Part shown: positions 8,794 to 39,354 of the stretch, one piece after another | Position numbering within the stretch: position 1 is the first letter of the stretch | How the letters are laid out: every line of letters begins with the position of its first letter | Program-made: the position numbers and the translations under genes | Source: a phage | Strand: one strand, 5' to 3' | Length of the DNA stretch: 40,208 nucleotides | Sequence record: QB023162.1 | The notes under the pieces: generated by a model | The model's input: only the letters and a program-made list of their open reading frames with translations | Told to the model about the DNA's origin: nothing | Database searches by the model: none

Positions 8794-8826
8794 TTTGCAG
8801 ACACCAATATAATAGGGTACTATTCA
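8794..8826 (+). promoter_or_regulatory. class A promoter with operator copy O1
   Basis: TTTGCA (8794..8799), then TATAAT (8808..8813) fused to palindrome ATAATAG-GGTA-CTATTCA (8809..8826); 38 nt upstream of ATG 8852. Confidence 0.5.
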
Positions 8827-9060: not shown

Positions 9061-9087
9061 AAGGCCCCAAACGGGGCCTTTTTCTTT
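9061..9087. terminator. bidirectional terminator
   Basis: AAGGCCCC-aaac-GGGGCCTT stem-loop with TTTTCTTT on plus and a U-rich tract on minus; lies between the moron stop and the portal stop. Confidence 0.6.
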
Positions 9088-10567: not shown

Positions 10568-10578
10568 TTGTTGTCCTC

Positions 10579-11829
10579 TTAAAGTGCGAAAGTCACCGGG
10601 ATGTTGATTACTGGTTTAACCACAGGCATCTCGTAAACTACAGGATAGCCGAGAGCATCCGCCATATGGTCAATGATGCCGTCTTTAGCTGGCTCTCCGT
10701 TATCATCGTATGCCTGCTGCTCCAGCGTCTTCGCTATCTCGGGGCATAAGTGGTCATTAACCCACAGCTTACCTTTTTCCAGCGCAGTATTCACCGCTAA
10801 AACACGGTCTTTAACTGGGGGGTTGGCGGATTTAGCGCGAACATCGAAACCGGCCTGCTGGAGTAACGCAATATCTGAGATTGATGCCGAGTTGGTTTTG
10901 CGGTTCTTGCCGCTGGCATCCGGGTAAACGACGATGCGGTGGCCTTGCGACTTCCACTTCTCAGTAATCACACGCACGGTGTCCGGCGTATCAAACAGAC
11001 CTTTCAGTTCTGATACCGCGTGCCAGCCGTCTTTACGTTGCACATACACGGCGCTGGCGTTCTTAGTAACGTTGAAGTCCTGCCCGATGTATAGCGTGTC
11101 GCCTGGTTGGATTGTCTCTTTGCTGCGGTGCTTGCGACGGTCATACGCATAATACACGCTGCCGGATGTCAGGTTAACGAACTCACCGTTCAGATATGCG
11201 TTAGTCAGTTGCGCAGGGTAAGTCTCTGTCAGTGAGCTAATGTAATCCGGCGGCAGGAACCGCGCATTCTCGTGAGAGGACGCCTGCACCATCGAGTAAC
11301 TTGGCGTCGGATTCTCTTTGAACTTGGCGTAAACGAACTTGAACCCTTCCGGCGTCGTGGTGACAGAGATGTGGTTAGTTACGCCCGGGATAACCAGACG
11401 CATACGGGCCACAATTTTGTTCCACGCCAGCTCGGCTTTCTCACGGCTCAATACGTCCAGTTCATCCACGACCGCGGCGGCGATTTTGAAACCCACAATC
11501 GAACCGGGGTTATCCATCGAACGGCAGATAACGGTCCCGAGCACCGTCTTACCGCGAGTAACCACGACTTCTTTGTCGCCAGATTTAACCAGCACATCGA
11601 GGCCGAGCAGGTTAGCGGCTTCCTCAAATGTCGGGTAGAAGATGTCACGGATAGCCGGGTATGTCGGGCCGAAGTAACCCAGGCGCGTACCTGGATGCTT
11701 GAGCATAAACGTAAGCAGGTCCAGACAGCCGACGAAGGTCTTACCGCTGCCAAAGCCTCCGACATATGCCTTATATTTGTTATCACAATTTAGGAACAGT
11801 GCCTGCGGGGCAGATAACTGAATACTCAT
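10579..11829 (-). CDS. terL: terminase large subunit
   Basis: Walker A GGFGSGKT near the N-terminus, C-terminal nuclease-type acidic residues, 416 aa; ATGA overlap with the upstream gene. Confidence 0.9.
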   Translation of the reverse strand: MSIQLSAPQALFLNCDNKYKAYVGGFGSGKTFVGCLDLLTFMLKHPGTRLGYFGPTYPAIRDIFYPTFEEAANLLGLDVLVKSGDKEVVVTRGKTVLGTVICRSMDNPGSIVGFKIAAAVVDELDVLSREKAELAWNKIVARMRLVIPGVTNHISVTTTPEGFKFVYAKFKENPTPSYSMVQASSHENARFLPPDYISSLTETYPAQLTNAYLNGEFVNLTSGSVYYAYDRRKHRSKETIQPGDTLYIGQDFNVTKNASAVYVQRKDGWHAVSELKGLFDTPDTVRVITEKWKSQGHRIVVYPDASGKNRKTNSASISDIALLQQAGFDVRAKSANPPVKDRVLAVNTALEKGKLWVNDHLCPEIAKTLEQQAYDDNGEPAKDGIIDHMADALGYPVVYEMPVVKPVINIPVTFAL

Positions 11830-12371
11830 TCCCCTACCTCGCCCATGTTCGTTGTTACGATTTTACCTACAGGCTCCGCGACACTGAAAATAATCTCAGT
11901 CGGTGCTGTTTCTTCGGTGGATTCAACTGGTTTCTCTTTGCCGAGGCCCAGCTTAGCGGCAGCGAACGTAGCGGAGATGCCCGCGGCCCCTGTCTCGGTG
12001 AAGTACGCCTCTTCCAGCGCCTGCGCCGTTTCGTATGCTTCTGCAAATGCGGGAATCTCACGCAACCACAGCTTAATAATCGGGATAGTGACGCCGATGT
12101 GTAAGGCAAAGCGTGCCAGTGACGGCGGTTTATCCTGAATCAGCGGGCGTTCGTCACCTTTGGACGTAGGTACGAGCTCCCATGACGTGCGGTCGAAGAA
12201 CTCGATTAACGCGTCGCAATAGTCCGGGTCCCACAACGCGGCGGAATTACGGGATGATTGATAAAGGCTCTGTTTACCGCGCGGTCGTTTACGGCGACGG
12301 TTTGCGCTAACAGCTTCTTCATGTGCAGCTTGCACCACCTCTGGCGATGGCTGCTTGAGTTTCAGCTTCAT
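11826..12371 (-). CDS. terS: putative terminase small subunit (start ATG 12371; table start is GTG 12410)
   Basis: Directly upstream of and coupled to terL; basic N-terminus; SD AGGGGA 4 nt before ATG 12371. Confidence 0.5.
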   Translation of the reverse strand: MKLKLKQPSPEVVQAAHEEAVSANRRRKRPRGKQSLYQSSRNSAALWDPDYCDALIEFFDRTSWELVPTSKGDERPLIQDKPPSLARFALHIGVTIPIIKLWLREIPAFAEAYETAQALEEAYFTETGAAGISATFAAAKLGLGKEKPVESTEETAPTEIIFSVAEPVGKIVTTNMGEVGE

Positions 12372-12411
12372 AGAATCCCCTTGCATATGCGTCTGACCAT
12401 CAGAGCGCACC

Positions 12412-12466
12412 AGACGCGCCCTACGCGTCTAAATGGATTATATAAGGGGATTGGGCGGGATGTACA
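12412..12466 (-). promoter_or_regulatory. candidate late promoter with 5' leader hairpin upstream of terS
   Basis: Minus strand: TGTACA, 18-nt spacer, TATAAT (12437..12466), then a 7-bp GC hairpin AGACGCG/CGCGTCT (12412..12430) at the predicted transcript 5' end. Confidence 0.3.
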
Positions 12467-12469
12467 GAA

Positions 12470-12489
12470 AAGCCCTCCGTAGAGGGCTT
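12470..12489 (-). terminator. terminator closing the leftward early small-gene block
   Basis: AGCCCTC-cgta-GAGGGCT stem-loop; on the minus strand it is followed by TTTTCTG. Confidence 0.45.
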
Positions 12490-12650
12490 GTTGGCGTGTT
12501 ATTCGGTTATATCGCCGTCGTCTACCAGTGCGATTGGTATTCTGACTTCGCCGTTGAATGTTTCTGCACACCAGAACTTCTCGCACTGAGTGACGCTGAA
12601 AACATCGAGTTATGACGTAGCCCCAGTTTTCCAGTAGACAGTTAACTTTT

Positions 12651-12887
12651 TCATTCCCCGCTCTCCTCTTTAGCAATGCGTTGCTCTGTTTTAGTGATAC
12701 CTCGGCGCGTGAATAGCACCGGGCTGGTCTTAACGTGCGTCATCAGACGGTTGTTATAAATTACGTGGCGCTCACAATCAACGTCTTTGCTGTACTTGGC
12801 AATCGTCATTTCGTTGATGCCAGTTCGCCGGCATGCCTCCGCCATCGTGCCAAATTCTTTTATAAGGTTCGGAATGCTGGTAATCAT
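12651..12887 (-). CDS. small HTH-like DNA-binding protein (78 aa from ATG 12887; table start is GTG 12911)
   Basis: Segment MAEACRRTGINEMTIAKYS looks helix-turn-helix; SD GAGGAA upstream of ATG 12887. Confidence 0.4.
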   Translation of the reverse strand: MITSIPNLIKEFGTMAEACRRTGINEMTIAKYSKDVDCERHVIYNNRLMTHVKTSPVLFTRRGITKTEQRIAKEESGE

Positions 12888-14162: not shown

Positions 14163-14195
14163 CTTCTATACTCCGTTCTCGTTGTCGATGAAGTA

Positions 14196-14224
14196 AATAT
14201 AATAGGGTCTAAGGTAATAGTCAA
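14196..14224 (-). promoter_or_regulatory. sigma70-like promoter (TTGACT, 17 nt, TATATT) reading leftward
   Basis: Minus strand: -35 TTGACT is the reverse complement of 14219..14224 and -10 TATATT of 14196..14201, spacer 17 nt; overlaps a half operator TATAATAG (14198..14205). Confidence 0.5.
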
Positions 14225-14253
14225 CTAGTCATTACAGAAAATAGATAAAAAAA

Positions 14254-16121: not shown

Positions 16122-16648
16122 TTAATGCACATACATGGAAACCCGACTCCGTAAAATTGCCATTCGTGTTCACACTCGCTGGATTTAGTCACGCCGCAAT
16201 TAATACAAACGGCGGGAGCCTTACCATTAACGAATCGCCAGTTATGGTGGCATTCCTGTGTATCTTCTTTGCGGCAACCAGATTGCTCAGGTCCGTGTTC
16301 ACCTACTACGTATCGCTGACCCACAGAAATGTAGCCGCCTTTGCGGATAAGTTTGTAGGCCTCTGCGTCACCTGTAGCTGTAGCAAGTCGTTTCACCAGG
16401 TCCTCAACTTGCGCTTGAAGGCGCAAAGCGTCATTACGATATGCGGACGATTGCCCGGTCATATGTGATATGTGCTCGGATTTCCTAATGTTGTCTTCCT
16501 GCAACTCCTTAATCTGTTTCGACGCATCGCGTAACCGATTCTTAAGTGCCTGCACCTCATGCGCCAGGTCTTCGCACCGGTTGTTACTTACCTGCTGCCG
16601 TAGCTGGTCAATCAGGTACTCGAATACTTCGTTTTTGTTACTCATCAT
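16103..16648 (-). CDS. coiled-coil protein with C-terminal Cys/His-rich zinc-finger-like domain (start ATG 16648; table start is TTG 16651)
   Basis: N-terminal half is heptad-rich; the C-terminal 50 aa contain nine Cys and several His, including CINCG and CIKCG. Confidence 0.5.
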   Translation of the reverse strand: MMSNKNEVFEYLIDQLRQQVSNNRCEDLAHEVQALKNRLRDASKQIKELQEDNIRKSEHISHMTGQSSAYRNDALRLQAQVEDLVKRLATATGDAEAYKLIRKGGYISVGQRYVVGEHGPEQSGCRKEDTQECHHNWRFVNGKAPAVCINCGVTKSSECEHEWQFYGVGFPCMCIKCGLKK

Positions 16649-16757
16649 CAACCCCCATTGTTATCGCTTTAGTGTCTCCGTTGCACACCGAAGTGCTGCC
16701 CATTATTTCGTAAGCATCTACCAGTTCGCCTAAAGTCCAGCTACCGTACCCGCCCAT
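16638..16757 (-). CDS. unlisted 39-aa ORF, first gene after class A promoter O2
   Basis: ATG 16757 with SD GAGAGGAGAG, 42 nt downstream of the -10 element. Confidence 0.3.
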   Translation of the reverse strand: MGGYGSWTLGELVDAYEIMGSTSVCNGDTKAITMGVDDE

Positions 16758-16785
16758 CTTCCGTCTCTCCTCTCGTTTGTGTAAA

Positions 16786-16817
16786 TGAATAGTAACCTAT
16801 TCTATCTCAGTGTACAA
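16786..16817 (-). promoter_or_regulatory. class A promoter with operator copy O2 (minus orientation)
   Basis: Palindrome TGAATAG-TAAC-CTATTCT (16786..16803); minus-strand -10 TAGAAT preceded by TTGTAC. Confidence 0.45.
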
Positions 16818-16824
16818 GTAAATT

Positions 16825-16995
16825 TTATTGGTGTTTTAAAGATAATCGTTCACCTCTAATCCAGTAGTACCTCGGGCGTCGCGCCCACTGACGCCATCGC
16901 ATAACACGGTACTTGTTGCCGTCTGACGCAACAATAAGCCCGAATCGCTTTTCTCCGTTTCTACCGGTCCAGGTTACGATGTCATTCAGTTTCAT
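16825..16995 (-). CDS. unlisted 56-aa ORF
   Basis: ATG 16995 with SD AGGAG; open frame to TAA at 16825..16827. Confidence 0.35.
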   Translation of the reverse strand: MKLNDIVTWTGRNGEKRFGLIVASDGNKYRVMRWRQWARRPRYYWIRGERLSLKHQ

Positions 16996-17065
16996 TGTTG
17001 CATCTCCTGCAATAGTCGCTTCGATTGTTGCGTTTGGTGAAATAGAACAAAAATGAGAAAAATGA

Positions 17066-17087
17066 TACGCTGCTGTGTAGCAGCGTA
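17066..17087 (-). terminator. rho-independent terminator within the leftward early block
   Basis: 9-bp stem TACGCTGCT/AGCAGCGTA with loop GTGT; on the minus strand it is followed by TCATTTTTCTCATTTTTG. Confidence 0.55.
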
Positions 17088-17098
17088 AGTCACAAAGC

Positions 17099-17116
17099 CA
17101 AATAGTAACCTATTGG
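17099..17116. promoter_or_regulatory. degenerate operator copy O3
   Basis: CAAATAG-TAAC-CTATTGG keeps the AATAG-N4-CTATT core but no usable -10; overlaps the stop of ORF 17110..17259. Confidence 0.3.
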
Positions 17117-17259
17117 CCTGTTACACCAGCACGAAATTGCACACCAGCTTTCCACGCCCGCCACGCGAGACGCGTCTTAACGTTCAGGTATTCTTTCTTT
17201 GAGCCCTTGTTAACCGACAGACCCTCGACAACGGCCCACCGTTCAAATGCTTCTCTCAT
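17110..17259 (-). CDS. unlisted 49-aa ORF
   Basis: ATG 17259 with SD GGAGGA 7 nt upstream; TAG stop at 17110..17112. Confidence 0.3.
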   Translation of the reverse strand: MREAFERWAVVEGLSVNKGSKKEYLNVKTRLAWRAWKAGVQFRAGVTGQ

Positions 17260-17262
17260 AAC

Positions 17263-17454
17263 TTAGTCCTCCAGAACTTCACATTCACGGTTACGCACGT
17301 ACAGCTCCTCGCCGCAGTGTTCGACGAAGTGTCCAAAATCATTACTTGACGTAACCTCGAACTCATCACCTATCGAAACTCCAAATTGGCGCAAAGAATG
17401 GTCGCCATACCCCGGCGGCAGCACATAATCAATATCAGTTATACGAATTCTCAT
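17263..17454 (-). CDS. hypothetical protein (63 aa from ATG 17454)
   Basis: ORF table; SD GGGAGG 8 nt before ATG 17454; TAATG overlap with the upstream gene. Confidence 0.45.
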   Translation of the reverse strand: MRIRITDIDYVLPPGYGDHSLRQFGVSIGDEFEVTSSNDFGHFVEHCGEELYVRNRECEVLED

Positions 17455-17705
17455 TAACGGCAACCTCCCTCAGAGTCGTCCGCACGAGCATCATGATTCG
17501 ATGCCGTTGTGAATGATGCGGAAACAACATTGAAGAAAATAACGGTTAAAGTCTCGCCCACAGTGTCCTCTAAATCCCATTCATCACCGTCTTCATCTAA
17601 AACGTATCGACGGCCGTCGTAATATACTCCTGACGAATATTTGTTACCTTTCACAAACCAATCCTGCACATCCTGGCTGGATTCAATACAAATTAATTCT
17701 TCCAT
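17454..17705 (-). CDS. hypothetical acidic protein (83 aa from ATG 17705)
   Basis: ORF table; ATGA overlap with the upstream gene. Confidence 0.45.
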   Translation of the reverse strand: MEELICIESSQDVQDWFVKGNKYSSGVYYDGRRYVLDEDGDEWDLEDTVGETLTVIFFNVVSASFTTASNHDARADDSEGGCR

Positions 17706-17890
17706 CACTTCGCCCCTTTGAATTTAAAATTGTTGCCGATGAGTTCTAAATTGTCGCGGAAAGCGTAACCATGTTTCTTTCGTACAAGGCCCCATATGTC
17801 TACAGCGATACTGTAGTCATCCTCGTCCTGGGTAACTATTACGTACTGTCCGCCGCGTTTCGTTTTCACCAACTGACCCTTCTTAAACAT
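17705..17890 (-). CDS. hypothetical protein (61 aa from ATG 17890), first gene after class A promoter O4
   Basis: SD AGAGGAG 8 nt upstream of ATG 17890; 44 nt downstream of the -10 element. Confidence 0.45.
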   Translation of the reverse strand: MFKKGQLVKTKRGGQYVIVTQDEDDYSIAVDIWGLVRKKHGYAFRDNLELIGNNFKFKGAK

Positions 17891-17921
17891 AACCCTCACT
17901 CCTCTGTCTCGTTCCGATAAG

Positions 17922-17953
17922 TGAATAGTATCCTATTATGTTGAGGTGTGCAA
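17922..17953 (-). promoter_or_regulatory. class A promoter with operator copy O4 (minus orientation)
   Basis: Palindrome TGAATAG-TATC-CTATTAT (17922..17939); minus-strand -10 CATAAT preceded by TTGCAC. Confidence 0.5.
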
Positions 17954-18323
17954 GAGATTAGTTACGCTGCCGTTGTGATTCTTTCGAAACTGTTGTGCCT
18001 TTATTCTTATTACTTGGTAACTAAAGGGCAGGCCTTAAGCCTGCCCAATAATCGTTACATTTTTACGGTTGCGAATCTACGGCATTTTAAGAAAATCAGA
18101 TACTTAAGAGATATGCTGCCGATGAGAATAGAGCTTGCCCAGGGCAACCGGAGATACTTAGGAAGGAAAGTTACGATAATTCTTATGTTCAGTAAGCCTG
18201 TGTTTAACCCTTTGCTTGTCGCACGGGTTAAACATTCTTACGAGGTGAACAGGAATCAAAGTAACTAAGATATAGAAGCACCTTAAACGAAGATTTTCAT
18301 AATGTCAATAGGTACGATTATGT

Positions 18324-18352
18324 TTGATTTCCCATTATTCGCAATGTATACT
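18324..18352 (+). promoter_or_regulatory. sigma70-like promoter for the rightward early operon
   Basis: TTGATT (18324..18329), 17-nt spacer, TATACT (18347..18352); 32 nt upstream of ATG 18385; no operator palindrome. Confidence 0.45.
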
Positions 18353-18384
18353 CGGTTTCGTTAACTGATAATGAGGGCTTTGGA

Positions 18385-18555
18385 ATGACACAGAATGAAG
18401 TAGCAGAGCGTATCGGGGTTACTCGTCGCACGCTGAATAACTGGTTAAAGAGTGGGAAGTTCCCGGATTGTTGTATTCGCATTATGGGCCGCCGGCAGCC
18501 AGGTACGTTTGACCCGGAGAAAGTGGAAGCGTGGATTAAGGAGAACGTAAAATGA
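18385..18555 (+). CDS. unlisted 56-aa HTH DNA-binding protein (excisionase/AlpA-like HTH)
   Basis: Translation MTQNEVAERIGVTRRTLNNWLKSGKFP... fits an Xis/MerR-type helix-turn-helix; SD GAGGG; ATGA coupling to the next gene. Confidence 0.5.
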   Translation: MTQNEVAERIGVTRRTLNNWLKSGKFPDCCIRIMGRRQPGTFDPEKVEAWIKENVK

Positions 18556-18785
18556 CCGAGTTCCAGTCACGTGTATTTACGGCGGTCGTTTCATTAACAC
18601 GTAAAAAAGGGTCGTGCAGCGTTATCGACTTGCGTCGTAGTTATTTTAAGTACTATAGTTCCGCCATTATTGAAGGGTCGTTGAAGGTGCTGGTTAAATC
18701 CGGTGTCGTGAAAAACACTGGCGGGAAATATAGCGCCGTTGCAGAAGTTCGCGGAATGACCGCTACTTTAGAAGACCTGGAATAA
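18552..18785 (+). CDS. hypothetical protein (77 aa)
   Basis: ORF table; translationally coupled to the upstream HTH gene. Confidence 0.45.
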   Translation: MTEFQSRVFTAVVSLTRKKGSCSVIDLRRSYFKYYSSAIIEGSLKVLVKSGVVKNTGGKYSAVAEVRGMTATLEDLE

Positions 18786-18843
18786 AAGAAAGCCCCGACG
18801 CGGTGAACGCCGAGGCCAAATTACTTGCTGAAGGAAATACAAC

Positions 18844-21084
18844 ATGTCCGATGTAATTTTATCCTACTCGTGGTCACGTCGCAACGCGCGGGCGGAGAAA
18901 AAGGATATAAACGTCAGAACCACACACACGGCAACACTAGACGACCTGAAAGGGTTAATCCAGCCGCTCGATGCCGTTCGTGATGGAATTAACCCGAAGA
19001 CCGCGCCGGGGTATATCACCGCCGCGTGCGACTCTACGCACAGCACTGTAAAAGACCCGGAAACAGGTGACTTTAAGCAAGCGCGTAAAGGCTTTTTCTA
19101 TCGCTGTGACGCGTCTGTAAGCAAATCGTCGCTGGCGTATCTGGACTTCGACAGCGCAACACCGGAGGAGTACCAGGAAGCGGTGCGCCTGGTTAAGCGC
19201 AGCCGCCTGGCGATGTGCCTCTACACTACGGCATCACATACCGACGAGTCCCCTCGCTTTCGCGTCGTTATGCCGCTGGGTTGCCCGGTCGAAGGTGGTG
19301 ACATCATCCGCGTTCGTCATGGATTGCTGGAGCACTTCTTCAAAGGTATGGGCGCTGACCGCAGCGGGTTCACCCTGTCGCAGCCGATGTACCTGCCGCC
19401 GGTTGGCTCTACCGTTATCTGGTCGCGCCGCAACGACCTGATTGACCCGGACGAGTTACTGGAGGGCATCCCCGCCGTTGACGTTAGTTGCGCATCTGAC
19501 TACCAGATACCGGAAGAACTGCGCACCGCGTTTACAGATGCGTTTGAGGCGCTGGCGTTCGAGTACGGCGGTGTCATGACACCGCGCGGCCTTAAGATGC
19601 CGGCTACACCGGAACACGCCGAAAACTACAGCGACCCGACCCCGCGCCCGGACGACTTCCTGTTGTGCTTCCCTCGCGAGGGATATGAAGCGCCTAACGT
19701 AACCATGATCCACGACACCGACATTACGGCAACCGAAGGCATGTCACCGAAGGAGGTGTGGAAGTATGCGTGCGATGCGACTGGGCTGCCGTTCAGTGAA
19801 GTGGCTGAGGCCATAGGTTGGGGTGCGCGTGAATCTGTCTCATGCAGCCTAGACGACCTGGAAGACGATGATGACTCAGAGGAGGGCGAGTTGCCGGAAC
19901 CGGTAAAGGCTGATTTCGTCGTTGAAGGGTACATGCCGTCAGATTGCATATGGGATATTGTCGGGGAATCTGGCACGTACAAATCGTTCTATACGCTTGG
20001 GATGATGTACCTTAGCGCTGCCGGATACCGGTTTGCGGGGGCAGATACCCAACGTTGTCACCATTTCTATATTGATGGCGAAGGTGGTGCCGCTACACGC
20101 ACCCGTATCGACGCACTCGCGGCTAAGTACGGCGAGGAAGGTAAAGATTATGTACATGTCATCGATATGGGCGAAGTCGGAAAACTGAAAAGCCTGATTA
20201 AGTTAATGCGCGAAACTGCGGGCGATGAACCTATTGGCATGGTTGCGTTCGACACCCTTAACCAGACCCTGGCCCTGACGATTGATAAGTTTGACGAGAA
20301 CAGCTCATCAACGACAATCGGTATGGGTAAAGTTATCGCCATCCTGAAAGAAGTGCGTGACGCGACTAAAGCCGCGGTAGGCGTCGTCCACCATACCCCG
20401 AAGGGGGGAAAGAAAGCCCGTGGCAGCGGGGCACTGTATGCAGGTGTCGACGTGGAACTGACGATTGAACGTGCAACCGACCGTCAAATAAACGTATACC
20501 ACTCTAAATTCAAGCACGGGCCGCAGCAGAAGACGGTTGGCATGGTTCTTGAGTCAGTACAGTTCCGTGAAGCGCCGCCGCCGAAAGAGTACCGTGCGGT
20601 TGAGTTCCTGGGTAGCACAGAAGAATACGGCACAATCGTAAACCTGGACCTTCCTGAGCCACACAAGGCGCTTGTGTTGATGCCGTGGGGCTTCGAGCCG
20701 TTCAAGACTGACGAGGAGAAAGAGCGAGAAGAAGGGCTGACAAAGGAAGGTAAAGAAAACGTAAAGAATGCTGTAAAACGCGGGAAGGATGAAGGGCGTA
20801 AGGAATCAATACTTGCAGCACTGGAAGACCTGCAACAGTCCGACGACACAGGCCGCGGTTTTACCCAACGGCAGATAGTAGCGAACTCGGGCGACCACGC
20901 CATCACCAACCACCATCTCGAGAAGATGCTGAAAGACGGGGAGTTGATGCTCGGGTGCGATGTTAACGGTGAAGTTATGCCAGGCACATACCGGATACCG
21001 GAAAAGATGGGTGACAGATTAAGGCCGAAGACAATATACGAACCAAATGAAATGCTGGTGGTTACAGAGGAGGATTTGGAATAG
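18844..21084 (+). CDS. putative replicative primase/helicase (P-loop NTPase in C-terminal half)
   Basis: 746 aa; Walker A-like GESGTYKS and Walker B-like MVAFD in the central/C-terminal region; SD GAAGGA; primase assignment of the N-terminal half is by analogy only. Confidence 0.55.
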   Translation: MSDVILSYSWSRRNARAEKKDINVRTTHTATLDDLKGLIQPLDAVRDGINPKTAPGYITAACDSTHSTVKDPETGDFKQARKGFFYRCDASVSKSSLAYLDFDSATPEEYQEAVRLVKRSRLAMCLYTTASHTDESPRFRVVMPLGCPVEGGDIIRVRHGLLEHFFKGMGADRSGFTLSQPMYLPPVGSTVIWSRRNDLIDPDELLEGIPAVDVSCASDYQIPEELRTAFTDAFEALAFEYGGVMTPRGLKMPATPEHAENYSDPTPRPDDFLLCFPREGYEAPNVTMIHDTDITATEGMSPKEVWKYACDATGLPFSEVAEAIGWGARESVSCSLDDLEDDDDSEEGELPEPVKADFVVEGYMPSDCIWDIVGESGTYKSFYTLGMMYLSAAGYRFAGADTQRCHHFYIDGEGGAATRTRIDALAAKYGEEGKDYVHVIDMGEVGKLKSLIKLMRETAGDEPIGMVAFDTLNQTLALTIDKFDENSSSTTIGMGKVIAILKEVRDATKAAVGVVHHTPKGGKKARGSGALYAGVDVELTIERATDRQINVYHSKFKHGPQQKTVGMVLESVQFREAPPPKEYRAVEFLGSTEEYGTIVNLDLPEPHKALVLMPWGFEPFKTDEEKEREEGLTKEGKENVKNAVKRGKDEGRKESILAALEDLQQSDDTGRGFTQRQIVANSGDHAITNHHLEKMLKDGELMLGCDVNGEVMPGTYRIPEKMGDRLRPKTIYEPNEMLVVTEEDLE

Positions 21085-21093
21085 GTAAAAAGA

Positions 21094-21112
21094 AAGGGGC
21101 GTTAAGCCCCTT
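21094..21112. terminator. bidirectional stem-loop between convergent primase/helicase and the XRE gene
   Basis: AAGGGGC-gttaa-GCCCCTT; the minus strand has TTCTTTTTACC downstream; includes the XRE stop codon. Confidence 0.5.
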
Positions 21113-21317
21113 CACCGAATGCCAGCCACTTGGCGTCTACTTGCAGCACTTCCGCCAGTTTAAACAGCGTCGCCGGGCGGACGTCTTGGGTTACCCCAAG
21201 TGCCAGCTGGTTAATTGCGCCCTGGGAAACCCCGGTCAGCACCGCCAGACGGCGCTGGGAGATGCCGAGTTCTTTACGGCGCTGTTCTACACGGATGCCT
21301 AGTTCAGATGGTTGCAT
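21102..21317 (-). CDS. XRE-family (Cro/CI-type) HTH transcriptional regulator, candidate operator-binding repressor
   Basis: 71 aa; segment ISQRRLAVLTGVSQGAINQL is a classic HTH_3 motif; SD AAGGAG; its own promoter carries operator O5. Confidence 0.75.
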   Translation of the reverse strand: MQPSELGIRVEQRRKELGISQRRLAVLTGVSQGAINQLALGVTQDVRPATLFKLAEVLQVDAKWLAFGEGA

Positions 21318-21345
21318 GTCAATTACTCCTTAGTTAGTTTATATG

Positions 21346-21363
21346 TGAATAGTACCATATTAA
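21346..21363 (-). promoter_or_regulatory. operator copy O5 with -10 TAATAT for the XRE gene (minus orientation)
   Basis: TGAATAG-TACC-ATATTAA; the -10 lies 40 nt upstream of ATG 21317. Confidence 0.45.
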
Positions 21364-21381
21364 TTATTTTAGAAAAGCCCA

Positions 21382-21410
21382 TTGACAAGTGAATAGCTCG
21401 CTATTATAGT
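21382..21410 (+). promoter_or_regulatory. class B promoter PB1 with operator O6 in the spacer
   Basis: TTGACA (21382..21387), 17 nt containing TGAATAG-CTCG-CTATTAT (21390..21407), TATAGT (21405..21410). Confidence 0.65.
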
Positions 21411-21441
21411 TAGCCCATACCAAATGAGAGGAGAGAAACAA

Positions 21442-21963
21442 ATGTTAGAACAATTCTTAAAATTACTGGAGCGTTTCGTAGTTGCCCATGAACTGATTGC
21501 GGCGAATAGTGCGAAACAAGTTGTCGTTGCCGAAGTAGATGGGTTAACCGCAGAGACTAAAGCAGACGTAGTTCGTGCCGTTGTAAAAGCTGAAGTAACG
21601 AAAGAAATCCCGGTAGAAGGTGAAGACACCGTTGACACTAAACCAGCAGAAGAAGAGAAGCCGAAGCGCAAGCCGCGTAAAGCTAAAGCAGAGGAACCGA
21701 CGCCAGAGCCGGAAGAAGAGAAGGAAGAAGAGAAGGAAGAAGAGAAGGAAGAAGTTGATTATCAGTCTCTGCGTGACCAGATTCAGGCCATCGACGATGC
21801 GATTAACGAAGGTCCTAGCGATGCTGCGTGCGATGATTCCGATGAACTGCTGGAAGAGTTCACCGGTAAGAAAATGAAGATTGCCGCGGTTAAAGACGAA
21901 GACCTGGCTGAATACCTGGAACGCCTGACGGCAATCAAGAACAAGTATTTCGAAGAAGAATAA
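21442..21963 (+). CDS. acidic low-complexity early protein (about 174 aa; start ATG 21442 rather than table 21424)
   Basis: SD GAGAGGAGAG before ATG 21442; strongly acidic with an (EEEK)n tract; the only gene between PB1 and the following terminator. Confidence 0.55.
   Translation: MLEQFLKLLERFVVAHELIAANSAKQVVVAEVDGLTAETKADVVRAVVKAEVTKEIPVEGEDTVDTKPAEEEKPKRKPRKAKAEEPTPEPEEEKEEEKEEEKEEVDYQSLRDQIQAIDDAINEGPSDAACDDSDELLEEFTGKKMKIAAVKDEDLAEYLERLTAIKNKYFEEE
21711..21754 (+). repeat. in-frame 12-bp tandem repeat (GGAAGAAGAGAA, about 3.7 copies)
   Basis: Three exact copies at 21711..21746 plus a partial copy; encodes the EEEK repeat. Confidence 0.8.
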
Positions 21964-23721: not shown

Positions 23722-23750
23722 TTGACACCTGAATAGTTAGCTATTATAGT
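23722..23750 (+). promoter_or_regulatory. class B promoter PB2 with operator O7
   Basis: TTGACA (23722..23727), 17 nt containing TGAATAG-TTAG-CTATTAT (23730..23747), TATAGT (23745..23750). Confidence 0.65.
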
Positions 23751-27018: not shown

Positions 27019-27299
27019 CCCCGGAAGGCAAGATTCAGAAATACGCAAAAGAGAGATTCGAGGCCCTGGGCGGCCTCGTTCGAAAGCTGTCTTATGAGGG
27101 GCGTTCCGGCGCTCCTGACCTGCTGGTGATTCTCCCCGGCGGCATCGTATGGTTCGTCGAGGTGAAGAAAGACGAAAACACGAAGCCAGACCCGCACCAG
27201 TTACGGGAGCACGAGCGGATGAGCAAACGTGGTGCTAATGTTTTTGTCGTTGGTTCGTTCAAACAGGTTGACACCCTAATAGCGAGCTATTATAGTTAA
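27015..27299 (+). CDS. VRR-NUC domain nuclease
   Basis: 94 aa with GAPDLLVILPGGIVWFVEVKK, i.e. a PD...(E)VK PD-(D/E)XK core typical of VRR-NUC. Confidence 0.7.
   Translation: MTPEGKIQKYAKERFEALGGLVRKLSYEGRSGAPDLLVILPGGIVWFVEVKKDENTKPDPHQLREHERMSKRGANVFVVGSFKQVDTLIASYYS
27268..27296 (+). promoter_or_regulatory. class B promoter PB3 with operator O8, embedded in the 3' end of the VRR-NUC gene
   Basis: TTGACA (27268..27273), 17 nt containing CTAATAG-CGAG-CTATTAT (27276..27293), TATAGT (27291..27296). Confidence 0.65.
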
Positions 27300-29080: not shown

Positions 29081-29106
29081 AAGGCCCCGTTTGGGGCCTT
29101 ATTTTT
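29081..29106. terminator. bidirectional terminator between the replication module and the tailspike gene
   Basis: AAGGCCCC-gttt-GGGGCCTT followed by ATTTTT; a U-rich tract is also present for the minus strand. Confidence 0.6.
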
Positions 29107-31269: not shown

Positions 31270-33852
31270 TTAACTAAAACCGTTGCTGAATCCGCCGGAG
31301 AAACCGCTACCGAAAGGTGCGACGCCGTCGTATTTGTAGAAATCTGCTTCGTAGTTAATCCCAGTAATCTTAACCGTTCTGTCGTCTCCTGGGTCAACTG
31401 TGGAAACAAGAATCATCTGAGCATTATGCCTTGCTTCGTTGCCGAATGAAAACTCAGTTTTTAGCGCGCTATTACCAGTATAAATTGCTTCCTGCGGTGC
31501 CGATAACATAACCACTTCACGGTCGTGACTTCCAGGCACAACGGCAACACTTTGAACTCCGCCGTCTCGCCTCTTAAGGATGAGTGAATGGTCATCTCCG
31601 GGGGTAAATGTAACTGGTTGCGATAGCGTAAGCGTCAGGCCGTTAACGGCGATTATATAGCCATCTTGAGGGGCCATGCGGGAACCTTTCACCACACTTA
31701 CAGCACGTCCTGGCATCGCAAAAATCCCTTCTTCTGTTGCTGTGAAAGACACAGTTACCTTCTTCAACAGGTTTTTCTGGTAGCGGCGGTATGCGGCCCA
31801 GTACGCCTGTCTATAATTTCTAATCCCTTTAGAGTCATACGTTTCAGTATTAACTCCTCCTTCTGCTGGTATGCTGATAGTCTCTTTTACGTTGGTATCT
31901 GGGTCAATGTAGGAGAACTTGAGACTATCGTATACCTGAGCGTCGTTGAATGTACGTGTCCACTTCTCCGAAGCTGTGGTTTTACTACGATGCGTGAATA
32001 CCATCTCAGGGCCGATGCGAGGGCGCTCGAAGTCCAGAAGAATATCAGCGCCTCTGCGGTATGGGGTGCAGAAAATTGCTTCCGCTATCGTAGTTACTAT
32101 GTCCTGCATAGTGGTTTTATAGTCATCAAACGTATAGCAAAACTCTCCTGCGGATGTGCTGCCGAAATAACTTTCAATTTCGTTCTGCACGGCCAGCAGT
32201 TTATCCATATTTGTCGTTGTCAGGTTCAGTGCGCCAACTTCCGGGTCTCTGGCGAGGCGAATGAGGGACTGGGTGGCCTTCGTGTTCGGCGTGCGAACTG
32301 TGTCGAAAACTCCGTTACCGAGGTACTTAAATACCATCTCTGTTACCACCATGCGCAACTGAGGTTGTTTAACCTCCGCCGCTCGTGGTGTCTGTTTACG
32401 CGCGGAATGCACTGTCGTTCGGTTACCGTAGTGTGGGGTTCGGTCGACTAATTGCCCGTAAAGATTTATATAGGCCACTTCATCGACTACTGTACCCTCA
32501 AAATCAAGGTCCAGATTGGTGACACGACGCGCTCTCACTCTTACACGTGATACGGACGGCAGGTCCGCATATATAGTAGCCCCAGTATAATCGGCGGACC
32601 TTCCGGAAACTGTCCCTTGTTTAGTGTAAACAGGGCCGTAAGCGCTTCCCGTTTCATCTAAAAGCTGATATTGCAGTTCTACGGTAACCGCGGCCCTTGA
32701 TTTATTGTCCCCATTGTCTTTGTACATGCCGTTCGTAGCGCCAATGTTGGCCACGATTCTTTCTACTGCAATTCTGTTTATAGCAACCCAATCGGTGAGG
32801 CTGGCCGAGGTGGTATCTAGCGGGCCTATAGTTGACTCTGGCTCATTAGATTGTATTTTATAGCCGCCCACAGGCAACTTCTGCCATTGAGATAGTGCCG
32901 GTGTGGCATCTACCCTAATCTCCGTCTCGCTTACAGAAATGCATGTGTAATTCCCATCAAGAATGGCGTCCGTTGCTGGGTTTGGGCTGCCGGATACCCA
33001 GCAATGTATACCGATGAATTTAACGGCCATACCCACTTTGATAAAGTCACTAAACCCGGCGTCCCCAGTTGGGTCAGTTACTATGCCAGTTGTTCCCTCC
33101 AGTTTCGCAATAGATAGTTCTCTCGTTACAGGCGACGCAAGGTCGTTAGGCGCTTTCAGCACCACACCGTCCACTTCATTGGACGCAACAGTGATGTAAA
33201 GCCCTTGTGTAATGGGGCCTCCGACCATTAATTGTGGGGCGTTTGTGTTGTTCGGAGAGGTGTACGGAGCGTACACCGCCACAGACGTGCCGGTTATATC
33301 CCGGACCTTAGTATCGCCGTCGGTGATGTCTTCTGCTTTAACGTCAAGATACCCGCGCCCCGCATCATAATAACCGTACTCGATGATGCGACCAGCGTCA
33401 TTGAAGACTTTATATGTAGTCATAAGGTTATTAGGTATTGTCTGCACCCTGCCGCAGATGTCATAAGTTCGCTCGTAAGGGCGAGCCTTGTTATTTCGGT
33501 CTGTCAGACTGTTGTTCGGTGAGTCCGCTTGCTGGTTAGCAAGATTGTTAGACGCGCCCTTCGTTGACGGTGTGAGTAATTTAGCTAGCGGTTTAAGGAT
33601 GATGCTGAACACTTTCATCACACCCTTGATAGCACCGCCACCAGCACCTTCCAGGACGTGAAAAACGGCATCCTGTTTTAATGCGTCAAAATCTTCTGTT
33701 ACGTCGTTATCCTCTCCTATCTCTTCGAGGAAAACGCGAAACGGCACACCGTCAGGGATATGGTTTACGACGAAATTAAGCGGCGAGTCGTTATGCCGTT
33801 TTTGTGAGAACGTCCCGTCTTCATTGCGGGTGTAGTGGATGACTATCGCCAA
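31270..33852 (-). CDS. central tail fiber / host specificity protein (J-like), TTG start as listed
   Basis: 860 aa immediately downstream of the K-like NlpC/P60 gene; start codon uncertain (TTG 33852, overlapping the upstream stop). Confidence 0.45.
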   Translation of the reverse strand: MAIVIHYTRNEDGTFSQKRHNDSPLNFVVNHIPDGVPFRVFLEEIGEDNDVTEDFDALKQDAVFHVLEGAGGGAIKGVMKVFSIILKPLAKLLTPSTKGASNNLANQQADSPNNSLTDRNNKARPYERTYDICGRVQTIPNNLMTTYKVFNDAGRIIEYGYYDAGRGYLDVKAEDITDGDTKVRDITGTSVAVYAPYTSPNNTNAPQLMVGGPITQGLYITVASNEVDGVVLKAPNDLASPVTRELSIAKLEGTTGIVTDPTGDAGFSDFIKVGMAVKFIGIHCWVSGSPNPATDAILDGNYTCISVSETEIRVDATPALSQWQKLPVGGYKIQSNEPESTIGPLDTTSASLTDWVAINRIAVERIVANIGATNGMYKDNGDNKSRAAVTVELQYQLLDETGSAYGPVYTKQGTVSGRSADYTGATIYADLPSVSRVRVRARRVTNLDLDFEGTVVDEVAYINLYGQLVDRTPHYGNRTTVHSARKQTPRAAEVKQPQLRMVVTEMVFKYLGNGVFDTVRTPNTKATQSLIRLARDPEVGALNLTTTNMDKLLAVQNEIESYFGSTSAGEFCYTFDDYKTTMQDIVTTIAEAIFCTPYRRGADILLDFERPRIGPEMVFTHRSKTTASEKWTRTFNDAQVYDSLKFSYIDPDTNVKETISIPAEGGVNTETYDSKGIRNYRQAYWAAYRRYQKNLLKKVTVSFTATEEGIFAMPGRAVSVVKGSRMAPQDGYIIAVNGLTLTLSQPVTFTPGDDHSLILKRRDGGVQSVAVVPGSHDREVVMLSAPQEAIYTGNSALKTEFSFGNEARHNAQMILVSTVDPGDDRTVKITGINYEADFYKYDGVAPFGSGFSGGFSNGFS

Positions 33853-34720: not shown

Positions 34721-34723
34721 AAA

Positions 34724-39297: not shown

Positions 39298-39329
39298 TTG
39301 CGCACCCCAATATAATAGAGTACTATTCA
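39298..39329 (+). promoter_or_regulatory. class A promoter with operator copy O9
   Basis: TTGCGC (39298..39303), then TATAAT (39311..39316) fused to palindrome ATAATAG-AGTA-CTATTCA (39312..39329); 38 nt upstream of ATG 39355. Confidence 0.5.
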
Positions 39330-39354
39330 CCTGTAACTTACTGAGGAAATAATT

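What the first reader, a model, noticed from the sequence alone, without database searches (positions are those of the whole stretch)
21318..21441. Divergent switch-like region: XRE gene and acidic early gene back to back with two operators
The 124-bp region holds operator O5 with -10 TAATAT driving the XRE gene leftward, and 19 bp away the -35 of PB1 (TTGACA, O6, TATAGT) driving the acidic gene rightward. The geometry resembles a lambdoid Cro/CI switch, but there is no integrase or CI-sized repressor. It therefore looks like an early-to-middle timing switch in a virulent phage.
Basis: partly seen in the sequence, partly recalled or inferred. Interest (0 to 1): 0.5.

Follow-up and report, generated by a model that had tools for sequence, protein, structure and literature searches.

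The report
Cro-like repressor hub in virulent phage
This 124-bp stretch of a virulent Kagunavirus (E. coli siphophage) holds two back-to-back host-type promoters, each overlapped by a 14-bp palindrome; the palindromes are two of at least nine copies that sit on the phage's early and middle promoters and are most likely bound by the neighbouring 71-residue relative of phage 434 Cro, so it is one node of a genome-wide shut-down circuit and not a two-gene switch.

Summary
The window is a Kagunavirus (Guernseyvirinae). The XRE protein is a full-length homologue of phage 434 Cro by both sequence and fold. The two operators are not a local switch. They belong to a set of at least 9 sites placed in two fixed registers on sigma-70-type promoters: the three replication operons, several accessory operons and the XRE gene itself. 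Orthologous sites occur in K1G and in the Jerseyvirus SETP7. Across 37 relatives the half-sites never change, while the central 4 bp and the linker do. XRE's own operator is always the imperfect one. PB1 also carries a near-consensus UP element that overlaps the upstream part of the XRE promoter. The best reading is a CI-less, Cro-only feedback repressor that turns down early and middle transcription, with weak autoregulation. There is no second repressor, no integrase and no prophage copies, so bistability is not supported. Binding by XRE is inferred, not shown. Interest is moderate.

The parts
21102..21317 (-). XRE gene: 71 aa, pI 9.7, 434 Cro-like HTH_3 protein. The predicted recognition helix is residues 31-38, SQGAINQL.
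   Evidence: ORF. Pfam HTH_3 E=1e-12. Best solved-structure match is 434 Cro, E=1.9e-6 over residues 6-68. The AlphaFold model has five helices and pLDDT 77. Foldseek top hits are 2cro, 1pra and 3cro. The helix is invariant in 12 Kagunavirus orthologues.
21093..21113 (-). Intrinsic terminator ending the monocistronic XRE transcript. The hairpin is shared with the convergent primase gene.
   Evidence: 8-bp stem with 5 GC pairs, followed by CTTTTTACC.
21326..21331 (-). Shine-Dalgarno sequence AAGGAG of the XRE gene, 8 nt before the ATG.
   Evidence: It is conserved as CTAAGGAG in Kaguna-, Jersey- and Cornellviruses.
21349..21357 (-). Proposed XRE promoter core: an extended -10, TGgTACTAT, with no usable -35 (CTTTTC). 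The predicted start is near 21342.
   Evidence: Geometry. TACTAT is the -10 of all class B promoters. TACTAT/TATACT lies 14-15 nt from the RBS in three genera. In SETP7 it has TTGCAC at 17 bp, and in St162 TTGTGC at 18 bp. This is an inference; no start-site data exist.
21357..21362 (-).
   Evidence: It is present and invariant within Kagunaviruses. It is not conserved at the equivalent place in Jerseyvirus, and no -35 lies at 16-18 bp.
21348..21361 (.). O5: imperfect operator AATAGTACCATATT, with one half-site ATATT instead of CTATT. It is centred near -12.5 of P_xre and near -62.5 of PB1.
   Evidence: (20.7 bits). The mismatch is invariant in 37 unique relatives and supplies the T of the TGn element.
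21360..21376 (+). A/T-rich UP-element-like tract of PB1 (TTAATTATTTTAGAAAA) at -57..-41. It occupies the zone where P_xre would need a -35.
   Evidence: Sequence. It matches 13 of 15 specified positions of the Estrem/Gourse UP consensus, which is recalled from memory and was not computed by a tool. It is nearly invariant in relatives.
21382..21410 (+). PB1: TTGACA, 17 bp, TATAGT (11 of 12 consensus positions). The predicted start is near 21417.
   Evidence: The hexamers are invariant in 37 relatives.
21392..21405 (.). O6: perfect operator AATAGCTCGCTATT filling the PB1 spacer and touching the -10. It is centred at -18.5.
   Evidence: (23.6 bits). Half-sites are invariant. Only the central 4 bp and the 3-4 nt linker to the -35 vary.
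21426..21435 (+). Shine-Dalgarno tract GAGAGGAGAG for the first PB1 gene.
21442..21963 (+). Acidic 173-aa protein (pI 4.4, EEEK repeats) of unknown function; first gene after PB1 in this phage.
   Evidence: PHROG 3127, E=2e-62, full length, function unknown. No Pfam match. It is replaced as first gene in about 15 of 38 relatives.
23722..23750 (+). Second class A promoter, TTGACA-17-TATAGT, with operator AATAGTTAGCTATT (23732-23745). It drives the SSB and DNA polymerase genes.
   Evidence: The footprint shows conserved half-sites.
27268..27296 (+). Third class A promoter, TTGACA-17-TATAGT, with operator AATAGCGAGCTATT (27278-27291). It drives the SNF2 helicase block.
17924..17953 (-). Class B promoter, TTGCAC-17-TACTAT, with operator at 17924-17937. 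It drives three small genes.
   Evidence: (24.8 bits). Orthologous sites: K1G 37059 and SETP7 36800.
16788..16817 (-). Class B promoter, TTGTAC-17-TACTAT, with operator at 16788-16801. It drives small genes running toward the lysis cassette.
   Evidence: Orthologous sites: K1G 38382 and SETP7 37671.
17101..17114 (.). Orphan operator copy, a 14-mer identical to the one at 16788. It has no -35 and sits just upstream of a terminator.
   Evidence: 16.4 bits. It is absent from K1G.
8795..8824 (+). Class B promoter, TTGCAG-17-TACTAT, with operator at 8811-8824. It drives a lone 67-aa gene.
39298..39337 (.). Operator 39314-39327 shared by a class B promoter (rightward, TTGCGC-17-TACTAT, accessory genes) and a class A-like promoter (leftward, GTTACA-17-TATATT, tail genes).
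   Evidence: Orthologous sites: K1G 14752 and SETP7 14330.
18385..18555 (+). 56-aa HTH_17 protein, the rival candidate for binding the palindrome.
   Evidence: Pfam HTH_17. Present in Kaguna- and Jerseyviruses, absent from Cornellviruses. Its putative recognition helix varies (at least 5 versions) among phages that have identical operators.

Best explanation
The region is a pair of back-to-back sigma-70 promoters, each with an operator.

PB1 points rightward. It has a UP-like tract, TTGACA, a 17-bp spacer and TATAGT, and should be very strong. It should fire as soon as the DNA enters the cell and transcribe the first replication/recombination operon. P_xre points leftward. It is a weak, -35-less, extended -10 promoter (TGgTACTAT) that makes a monocistronic mRNA for a 71-aa 434-Cro-like protein.

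I infer that XRE binds as a dimer to the 14-bp dyad AATAG-N4-CTATT. The dyad fills the spacer of the three class A replication promoters (centre -18.5). It covers the -10 of the class B promoters (centre -12.5). Bound XRE would therefore exclude RNA polymerase.

As XRE accumulates it would turn down all operator-bearing early and middle operons together. That is the job Cro does at PR and PL in a lytic lambda or 434 infection, here without a CI partner.

XRE's own operator, O5, has one crippled half-site in every relative. The XRE promoter would therefore be the last to be repressed, giving homeostatic autoregulation. The PB1 polymerase and UP-element footprint overlaps P_xre. Repression of PB1 at O6 should therefore first free P_xre and sharpen the transition.

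Shown here: the sequence elements, their statistics, their conservation and the protein's family.
Inferred: who binds the dyad, the sign of regulation, the transcription start sites and the timing.
For: - Statistics: 8 exact palindromes plus O5 against 0.9 expected. Nine sites score 16-25 bits.
- Fixed registers: all three 11-of-12 promoters carry the dyad at the same place. Five more promoters use its right half as their -10, TACTAT, 17 bp from TTGCAC-like -35s. Two registers 6 bp apart, in opposite orientation, argue for a separate protein site and not a polymerase element.
- Phylogenetic footprint: in 37 unique Kagunavirus sequences the half-sites of O5, O6 and the 23732 site are invariant (one variant base in one sequence). 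The central 4 bp and the -35/operator linker vary, including a 1-nt indel.
- Orthologous sites: 7 in K1G and 6 in the Jerseyvirus SETP7.
- Cornellviruses: a dyad of the same 6-4-6 form (TAWTAS-N4-STAWTA) is enriched in Cornellviruses (5 and 3 copies against 0.05 expected). They lack the HTH_17 gene, so XRE is the only small HTH protein shared by all three genera.
- Protein family: XRE is homologous to 434 Cro and the 434 repressor DNA-binding domain. Those proteins bind 14-bp dyads with conserved outer bases and a variable centre.
- Nearest outside homologue: the Hafnia phage Meifeng protein (44% identity) sits in the Cro position next to 14-bp ACAG-N6-CTGT dyads.
- Helix conservation: the XRE recognition helix is invariant within Kagunaviruses. 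The HTH_17 helix has at least 5 versions among the same phages.
- Flank base: the base flanking the dyad follows the XRE clade (G/T in Kaguna, T/T in Jersey) and not the HTH_17 type.
- Own promoter: the XRE promoter carries a degenerate dyad in all three genera.
Against: - There are no binding or expression data for XRE.
- Simple covariation fails. Kaguna and Jersey XRE proteins are only 50% identical and differ at four helix positions (SQGAINQL against SQSLITHL), yet they share the AATAG half-site. The Jersey helix is closer to the Cornell helix (TQSAISHL), whose sites differ.
- HTH_17 is 87.5% identical between this phage and SETP7 and is missing exactly where the AATAG motif is missing.
- The half-sites resemble -10 hexamers, so part of their conservation could come from promoter function.
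- The one RNA-seq study places XRE in a broad "middle" class together with primase, and DNA polymerase in "late". That neither fits nor refutes the model.
- Some presumptive late promoters carry one-mismatch operator-like sequences over their -35. "Early/middle only" may therefore be too neat.
Confidence: 0.6

Rival explanations
1. The dyads are real regulatory sites, but something other than XRE binds them. Candidates are the 56-aa HTH_17 protein (18385-18555), another phage protein or a host factor. Alternatively they are a phage-specific promoter signature, as a PHIRE analysis labelled them. XRE would then regulate something else or only itself.
For: - HTH_17 co-occurs with the AATAG motif: it is present in Kaguna- and Jerseyviruses and absent from Cornellviruses. 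It is 87.5% identical between genera that share the motif.
- XRE helix residues do not covary simply with the half-site.
- The HTH_17 orthologue is one of only four "early" genes in the K1B4 RNA-seq study.
- The fBC-Eco01 paper reports the same consensus, tgAATAGTa-ccTATTat-T, as seven "phage promoters".
Against: - The putative HTH_17 recognition helix has at least 5 versions (for example VTRRTLNNW and VSPMTLNRW) among phages with identical operators.
- Cornellviruses lack HTH_17 yet have an enriched dyad of the same 6-4-6 form.
- Characterised HTH_17 relatives such as AlpA bind short asymmetric sites as monomers. AlpA also needs a large N-terminal part that is absent here.
- No phage RNA polymerase gene is annotated in any relative, so a "phage RNAP promoter" cannot apply.
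- The dyad sits in two different registers relative to -35/-10, and one copy has no promoter (17101).
Confidence: 0.17
2. One reading: a local, lambda-like bistable switch confined to the 124-bp region. It would choose between XRE expression and expression of the acidic-gene operon.
For: - Back-to-back promoters about 75 bp apart, each with an operator.
- One perfect and one imperfect site.
- A Cro homologue next door.
- Promoter competition could add some sharpness.
Against: - There is only one regulator. No CI-sized or S24 repressor and no integrase are annotated in five relatives.
- There are two sites 44-45 bp apart, with a 1-nt spacing polymorphism, instead of a tripartite cooperative operator.
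- Seven further operators lie elsewhere in the genome.
- The acidic gene is not a fixed partner.
Confidence: 0.08
3. XRE is a maintenance (immunity-type) repressor. It would let these supposedly virulent phages persist as a silent, non-integrated episome, that is, a carrier state or pseudolysogeny. All lytic promoters would be shut while the weakly operated XRE promoter stays on.
For: - The circuit logic fits. There are consensus operators on every replication promoter and a crippled operator on the repressor's own promoter. The gene lies in the CI-like divergent position.
- One complete Kagunavirus genome is deposited as a circular 44-kb "plasmid" of a clinical E. coli isolate, CP088689.1.
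Against: - No partition, integration or anti-repressor genes are annotated in relatives.
- The papers read here report no lysogeny-associated genes and describe these phages as lytic or virulent.
- There are no copies in 5,426 complete E. coli genomes, and homologue-bearing contigs are all 45 kb or smaller.
- One "plasmid" record among 72,556 may simply be phage carried over into an assembly.
Confidence: 0.06

Closest known systems
Phage 434 Cro and its 14-bp operators (OR1-OR3, ACAA-N6-TTGT)
   Same: - Same length (71 aa).
- Best sequence match (E=1.9e-6) and best fold match among solved structures.
- The glutamine at the start of the recognition helix is conserved.
- Operators are 14-bp dyads with conserved outer bases and a variable centre, and they overlap promoters.
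   Different: - The half-site differs: AATAG with a 4-bp centre.
- There is no partner CI repressor and no tripartite OR.
- The gene is divergent from the replication operon (the CI position) and is not its first gene.
- Operators are dispersed over at least 8 promoters in a virulent phage.
Lambda and P22 Cro as turn-down repressors of PR and PL during lytic growth
   Same: A small dimeric repressor made early. It feeds back on strong early promoters, so early transcription declines as infection proceeds.
   Different: Lambda Cro has a different fold. The lambdoid circuits are bistable through CI and tied to lysogeny; here there is no lysogeny module.
Repressors with operators scattered across the genome (P1 C1; mycobacteriophage L5 gp71 "stoperators"; phiC31 c repressor), cited from general knowledge
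   Same: One repressor and many dispersed copies of one site, controlling several operons.
   Different: Those are immunity repressors of temperate phages and mostly use asymmetric sites. Here the phage is virulent and the sites are symmetric dyads locked into promoter cores.
Restriction-modification controller (C) proteins (C.AhdI, C.BclI, C.Esp1396I)
   Same: A small HTH_3 protein. Structural hits appear in the fold search. A strong distal and a weak proximal dyad near the protein's own promoter produce a delay and an autoregulatory timing device.
   Different: - There are no R-M genes.
- The dyads are 44 bp apart, not an adjacent C-box pair.
- Most sites lie far from the gene.
Hafnia phage vB_HpaM_Meifeng Cro-position protein (MIFENG_29)
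   Same: It is the nearest homologue outside the Guernseyvirinae (44% identity). It is 74 aa long and flanked by 14-bp dyads in a divergent promoter region.
   Different: - It faces a 226-aa CI-like regulator and heads the replication operon, a classical lambdoid layout.
- Its helix is QQS, as in 434.
- Its operators are ACAG-N6-CTGT.

Membership tests
XRE / Cro-CI type HTH (Pfam HTH_3) | Significant match to the HTH_3 profile above the curated cut-off | tested here: met
   48.2 bits against a cut-off of 23, E=1.1e-12, residues 11-65.
XRE / Cro-CI type HTH (Pfam HTH_3) | Five-helix lambda-repressor-like fold with helix 3 as the recognition helix | tested here: met
   The AlphaFold model has helices at 5-17, 21-28, 32-39, 48-57 and 62-66, with pLDDT 77. 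Foldseek top hits are 434 Cro and the 434 repressor, TM about 0.72-0.77.
434-type Cro/operator module | Cro-sized single-domain protein homologous to 434 Cro | tested here: met
   71 aa. phmmer E=1.9e-6 to 434 Cro over residues 6-68.
434-type Cro/operator module | 14-bp dyad operators with conserved outer bases and an uncontacted variable centre, overlapping promoters | tested here: met
   AATAG-N4-CTATT at 9 sites. Half-sites are invariant and the centre is variable in 37 relatives. Sites are centred at -18.5 or -12.5.
434-type Cro/operator module | The protein binds these operators as a dimer and represses | not testable with these tools
   Needs EMSA or footprinting and reporter assays. Comparative evidence favours XRE over HTH_17 but is indirect.
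Lambdoid bistable immunity switch (CI/Cro) | A second, antagonistic CI-type repressor (HTH plus oligomerisation/S24 domain) transcribed divergently | tested here: not met
   The divergent partner is an acidic protein with no HTH. No CI-like gene is annotated in phiSD1, SETP7, St162, VSiP or K1G. The window's own ORFs were only partly scanned.
Lambdoid bistable immunity switch (CI/Cro) | Tripartite, closely spaced operators allowing cooperative and differential occupancy | tested here: not met
   There are two sites 44 bp apart centre to centre, and 45 bp in some relatives.
Lambdoid bistable immunity switch (CI/Cro) | Integrase or lysogeny module, and existence as prophages | tested here: not met
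   No integrase is annotated in relatives. There are 0 matches in 5,426 complete E. coli genomes. No enterobacterial chromosomal locus was found in one genome per species. Homologue-bearing contigs are 45 kb or smaller.
R-M controller (C) protein | The gene is adjacent to, or co-transcribed with, a restriction endonuclease, and a C-box lies upstream | tested here: not met
   The XRE gene is monocistronic, lying between a terminator and the promoter region. Its neighbours are primase and the acidic protein.
Toxin-antitoxin antitoxin (HigA/HipB-like XRE) | An adjacent co-transcribed toxin gene | tested here: not met
   There is no second ORF in the transcription unit 21093-21357.
AlpA/Q-type antiterminator loading site (rival reading for HTH_17) | A short asymmetric binding element between -35 and -10, and a protein with an N-terminal segment that enters the RNA exit channel | tested here: not met
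   The sites are symmetric 14-bp dyads, and in class B they cover the -10. The HTH_17 protein is only 56 aa. In AlpA the DNA-contact residues lie at positions 128-142, so the protein is far longer, and it binds a 6-bp GGGACG element as a monomer.

The most novel reading that the evidence does not exclude
The Cro-sized XRE protein acts as a minimal immunity repressor. Every replication and accessory promoter carries a consensus operator. The repressor's own promoter carries a deliberately weakened operator and is unmasked when PB1 is shut. XRE could therefore hold the whole genome silent as a non-integrated episome. That would give these therapeutically used "strictly virulent" Guernseyvirinae a cryptic carrier or pseudolysogenic state and superinfection immunity, without CI, integrase or partition genes.
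Probability: 0.06. Interest if true: 0.75.

Novelty: new variant of a known kind. Interest (0 to 1): 0.4.

Why it matters
Kaguna- and Jerseyviruses number more than 450 sequenced genomes in the collection searched here. They are among the phages most often proposed for E. coli and Salmonella therapy and food biocontrol.

- **Safety annotation.** The XRE gene is variously annotated as "transcriptional repressor", "repressor" or "hypothetical", and in K1G it is not annotated at all. A repressor label raises lysogeny flags in safety screens. If it is a Cro-type lytic feedback regulator with a defined regulon, that concern is removed.
- **Earlier literature.** The repeated "phage promoter" motif was attributed in print to a phage RNA polymerase that these phages do not encode. 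The regulon reading explains that motif.
- **Transcription map.** It gives the first testable transcription map for the subfamily.
- **Synthetic biology.** It offers a compact repressor/operator pair with natural operator variants in two promoter registers.
- **Concept.** A CI-less, Cro-only circuit conserved across a whole virulent subfamily is a useful case of what remains of lambdoid logic when lysogeny is absent.

Tried and rejected
- **Operator/helix covariation across genera as proof that XRE is the binder.** Inconclusive. Kaguna and Jersey share the half-site despite different helices.
- **SS3e as a natural XRE swap.** Its low identity comes from a frameshift in an old sequence; it is the ordinary Jersey type.
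- **Exact-pattern scan of IMG/VR for TGAATAG-N4-CTATTAT.** Multi-copy hits occur only in Kagunavirus contigs.
- **Search for prophage relatives.** Nothing was found in E. coli genomes. The only close hit in GTDB species genomes is a Jerseyvirus-like contig in a Bacteroidota assembly, presumably contamination.
- **HTH_17 as an AlpA/Q-like antiterminator loading at the dyads.** Rejected on protein size, site symmetry and overlap with the -10.
- **Known RNA families.** No Rfam match anywhere in the window.
- **Host transcription-factor sites recalled from memory (ArgR, Fur, LexA, IHF).** None resembles the dyad. This was not tested with a tool.
- **K1B4 RNA-seq for timing.** Too coarse and asynchronous to test the model.
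- **Repeat search in the large intergenic region 16600-18900.** Nothing bore on the finding.
Full report
**What the window is.** A 3-kb query around the finding matches 446 phage records at 80-95% identity, mostly Escherichia Kagunavirus and Salmonella Jerseyvirus (Guernseyvirinae). Gene order around the finding is as follows:
- a 56-aa HTH_17 protein, a 77-aa protein and primase-helicase, all rightward;
- the XRE gene, leftward;
- the acidic protein, PD-(D/E)XK/DUF2800 nuclease, SSB-like DUF2815, DNA polymerase A and SNF2 helicase, all rightward.

**Check of the observation.** All coordinates hold:
- XRE ORF at 21102-21317 on the minus strand;
- a 124-bp intergenic region at 21318-21441;
- ATG at 21442 preceded by GAGAGGAGAG;
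- O5 = AATAGTACCATATT at 21348-21361;
- TAATAT on the minus strand at 21362..21357, then 19 nt, then TTGACA at 21382-21387;
- O6 = AATAGCTCGCTATT at 21392-21405;
- TATAGT at 21405-21410.

The downstream protein is acidic (pI 4.4, 50 D+E of 173 residues). It belongs to a PHROG of unknown function. The motif is not a chance feature. AATAG-N4-CTATT with up to 1 mismatch occurs 11 times against 0.93 expected, and none of 100 shuffles reaches that count. It is the most frequent 5+N+5 palindrome in the window. A position weight matrix (PWM) separates nine sites at 16-25 bits from everything else.

**The protein.** XRE matches Pfam HTH_3 (E=1e-12). Among all solved structures its best sequence match is phage 434 Cro, also 71 aa, aligned over residues 6-68 (E=1.9e-6). 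The 434 repressor DNA-binding domain follows. An AlphaFold model built from 12 orthologues has the expected five helices (pLDDT 77). Its best Foldseek hits are 2cro, 1pra and 3cro. The protein has no C-terminal domain, so it is Cro-sized and not CI-sized. The nearest homologue outside the subfamily is in Hafnia phage Meifeng (44% identity). It occupies a classical Cro position opposite a 226-aa HTH regulator and is flanked by 14-bp ACAG-N6-CTGT dyads.

**The operators form a regulon.** Printing every site in context and computing the geometry shows two fixed registers.
- *Class A.* Three promoters start at 21382, 23722 and 27268. All are TTGACA-17-TATAGT, the only 11-of-12 promoters in the window. 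The dyad fills the spacer and is centred at -18.5. They head the nuclease, SSB/polymerase and helicase blocks.
- *Class B.* These promoters use operators at 8811 (plus), 39314 (plus), 17924 (minus), 16788 (minus) and O5 (minus). The right half of the dyad supplies the -10, TACTAT, 17 bp from a TTGCAC-like -35. The dyad is centred at -12.5.
- *Other copies.* The 39314 dyad also lies in the spacer of a leftward GTTACA-17-TATATT promoter facing the tail genes. One copy (17101) has no promoter.

The same dyad thus occurs in two registers 6 bp apart and in opposite orientation relative to transcription. That argues that it is a separate protein-binding site and not part of polymerase recognition.

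**Conservation.**
- Thirty-seven unique Kagunavirus sequences of the intergenic region were aligned. The half-sites of O5 and O6, both hexamers of PB1 and the A/T tract between them are invariant. Variation is confined to the central 4 bp of the dyads and to the 3-4 nt linker between the -35 and O6, which even changes length.
- The 23732 site behaves the same way.
- Orthologous sites are present in K1G (7) and in the Jerseyvirus SETP7 (6).
- The Cornellviruses St162 and VSiP lack the AATAG form. They are still enriched for a dyad of the same 6-4-6 architecture, TAWTAS-N4-STAWTA: 5 and 3 copies against 0.05 expected. These again overlap -10 hexamers.

**Who binds the dyad?** There are two small HTH proteins.

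Points in favour of HTH_17:
- It is 87.5% identical between this phage and SETP7, which share the motif.
- It is absent from Cornellviruses, which do not have the AATAG form.
- XRE is only 50% identical to its Jersey orthologue, with a different recognition helix.

Points in favour of XRE:
- Its helix, SQGAINQL, is invariant in Kagunaviruses. The putative HTH_17 recognition helix has at least five versions among phages with identical operators.
- The base flanking the dyad follows the XRE clade (G/T in the window and K1G, T/T in SETP7) and not the HTH_17 type.
- Cornellviruses have a dyad regulon without any HTH_17 gene.
- A symmetric 14-bp site matches 434-type dimers. The characterised HTH_17 relative AlpA binds a 6-bp asymmetric element as a monomer and needs a large extra domain.
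- Two of the sites flank the XRE gene itself.

I put XRE as the binder at about 0.7.

**The XRE promoter.** Within Kagunaviruses both TAATAT and TACTAT lie in an invariant block, so that comparison cannot choose between them. Across genera, TACTAT (TATACT in St162) keeps a constant 14-15 nt distance from the conserved CTAAGGAG ribosome-binding site. It has a proper -35 in SETP7 (TTGCAC, 17 bp) and in St162 (TTGTGC, 18 bp). Kagunaviruses have no -35 there. However, the single "mismatch" of O5 (AATAT instead of AATAG on the XRE-sense strand) creates TGgTACTAT, a textbook extended -10. The imperfection of O5 therefore looks functional, and it is fixed in all 37 relatives. In all three genera the XRE promoter carries the most degenerate dyad: Kaguna has one mismatch, SETP7 has TATTACTGTACTATTA and St162 has TATTAGTAGAGTATAC. 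This suggests weak autoregulation.

**Additional anatomy.** The tract at 21360-21376 (TTAATTATTTTAGAAAA) lies at -57..-41 of PB1. It matches 13 of 15 positions of the UP-element consensus, which I recalled from Estrem et al. 1998 and did not compute with a tool. The same tract is where P_xre would need its -35. The predicted starts (about 21342 and 21417) are 75 bp apart, so the two polymerase footprints overlap. This supports a model in which strong PB1 initially occludes weak P_xre. Repression at O6 would then free P_xre, and O5 would cap XRE levels. All of this is inferred.

**Lifestyle.** No integrase or CI-like gene is annotated in phiSD1, SETP7, St162, VSiP or K1G. The 6.2-kb module has no match in 5,426 complete E. 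coli genomes. Close XRE homologues occur only on contigs of 45 kb or less. One Kagunavirus genome is deposited as a circular "plasmid" of a clinical isolate. That is an anecdote, not evidence of lysogeny.

**Literature.**
- The motif has been seen before. PHIRE analysis of the Kagunavirus fBC-Eco01 reported seven "phage promoters" with consensus tgAATAGTa-ccTATTat-T and attributed them to a phage-encoded RNA polymerase. No such gene is annotated in these genomes.
- The Golestan paper lists seven PHIRE promoters.
- GenBank records call the gene "transcriptional repressor" or similar.
- I found no paper that links the protein to the motif or tests either.
- The K1B4 RNA-seq study classes the HTH_17 orthologue as early and the XRE orthologue as middle. 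It uses very coarse time classes.

**Verdict.** It is too narrow in treating the region as a local switch. The region is the home node of a dispersed, subfamily-wide regulon run by a single Cro-type protein without a CI partner. This is a variant of a well-known kind of circuit, and it remains experimentally untested.

Noticed in passing
window 14194-14229 and 7140-7165 (minus strand): Two presumptive late-operon promoters: TTGACT-17-TATATT upstream of the terminase genes, and TTGACT-17-TGnTAAGCT upstream of the spanin/scaffold/capsid genes. Both have a one-mismatch operator-like sequence (ACTAGTTGACTATT and AATAGTTGACTTTT) laid over the -35, a possible third, weak register. The first is conserved in SETP7 (41001) and the second in K1G (4404).
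   Followed up: partly
window 17101-17114 and 17066-17087: An orphan operator whose 14-mer is identical to the one at 16788. It lies at the end of a small ORF, immediately upstream of an intrinsic terminator, and has no -35. It is absent from K1G. SETP7 has a degenerate copy just after the equivalent terminator. It could be a roadblock or a remnant.
   Followed up: partly
window 39298-39337: A single dyad appears to serve two divergent promoters: class B rightward into the accessory block, and class A-like leftward (GTTACA-17-TATATT) into the tail genes.
   Followed up: partly
window 21411-21441, and the leaders at about 16740-16782, 17900-17918 and 14170-14195: The 5' leaders of several operons share an (A)ACGAGAGGAG-type tract just before the start codon, for example ccaaaTGAGAGGAGAG, cacaaACGAGAGGAGAG, ggAACGAGACAGAGGAG and gacAACGAGAACGGAG. 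This may be a common translation-initiation cassette.
   Followed up: no
downstream of window 21441; loci L002-L038: The conserved promoter-operator-leader cassette is followed by at least six different first genes in 38 relatives. The acidic gene comes first in only about 23 of them. This suggests the cassette acts as a recombination junction for gene shuffling.
   Followed up: partly
window 17938-18384: An approximately 450-bp stretch with no convincing gene lies between the leftward 17924 promoter and the HTH_17 gene. It contains a terminator-like hairpin (18026-18046) and short repeats. The equivalent gap exists in K1B4 (6490-6973). It may be an origin or another regulatory region.
   Followed up: no
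L182 (CP088689.1, E. coli C16EC0033 "plasmid" pC16EC0033-2, 44,086 bp circular): A complete Kagunavirus genome, with XRE, RepA-family helicase, DUF2800, DUF2815 and polymerase genes, is deposited as a non-mobilisable plasmid of a human blood isolate. This could be a carrier state or carry-over of phage into the assembly.
   Followed up: partly
L040 (St162) 9600-12700 and L041 (VSiP) 34300-37200: In Cornellviruses the XRE gene is co-directional with primase-helicase and heads its operon, and the HTH_17 and 77-aa genes are missing. The divergent XRE/acidic-gene junction is nevertheless kept in all three genera.
   Followed up: partly
L181 (K1G, NC_027993.1) 33428-33640: The XRE gene (97% identical to the window's) is not annotated at all in the RefSeq record of the type Kagunavirus K1G.
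   Followed up: no
PMC9825357 (fBC-Eco01 paper): The palindrome consensus was published as the promoter of a "phage-encoded RNA polymerase". No RNA polymerase gene is annotated in any of the five relatives examined, so that attribution looks mistaken.
   Followed up: partly
window 903-922, 9061-9080, 29081-29100 (also 7224-7241, 24452): Near-identical GC-rich hairpins, AAGGCCCC-N4-GGGGCCTT, recur between convergent or tandem operons. They score as terminators on both strands and appear to be a shared bidirectional terminator cassette.
   Followed up: no
L162 (NZ_JACVEL010000022.1, Taishania pollutisoli scaffold): A scaffold of a Bacteroidota genome assembly carries a Jerseyvirus-type XRE region that is nearly the same as SETP7's, including the operators. 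This is probably phage contamination of the assembly.
   Followed up: no
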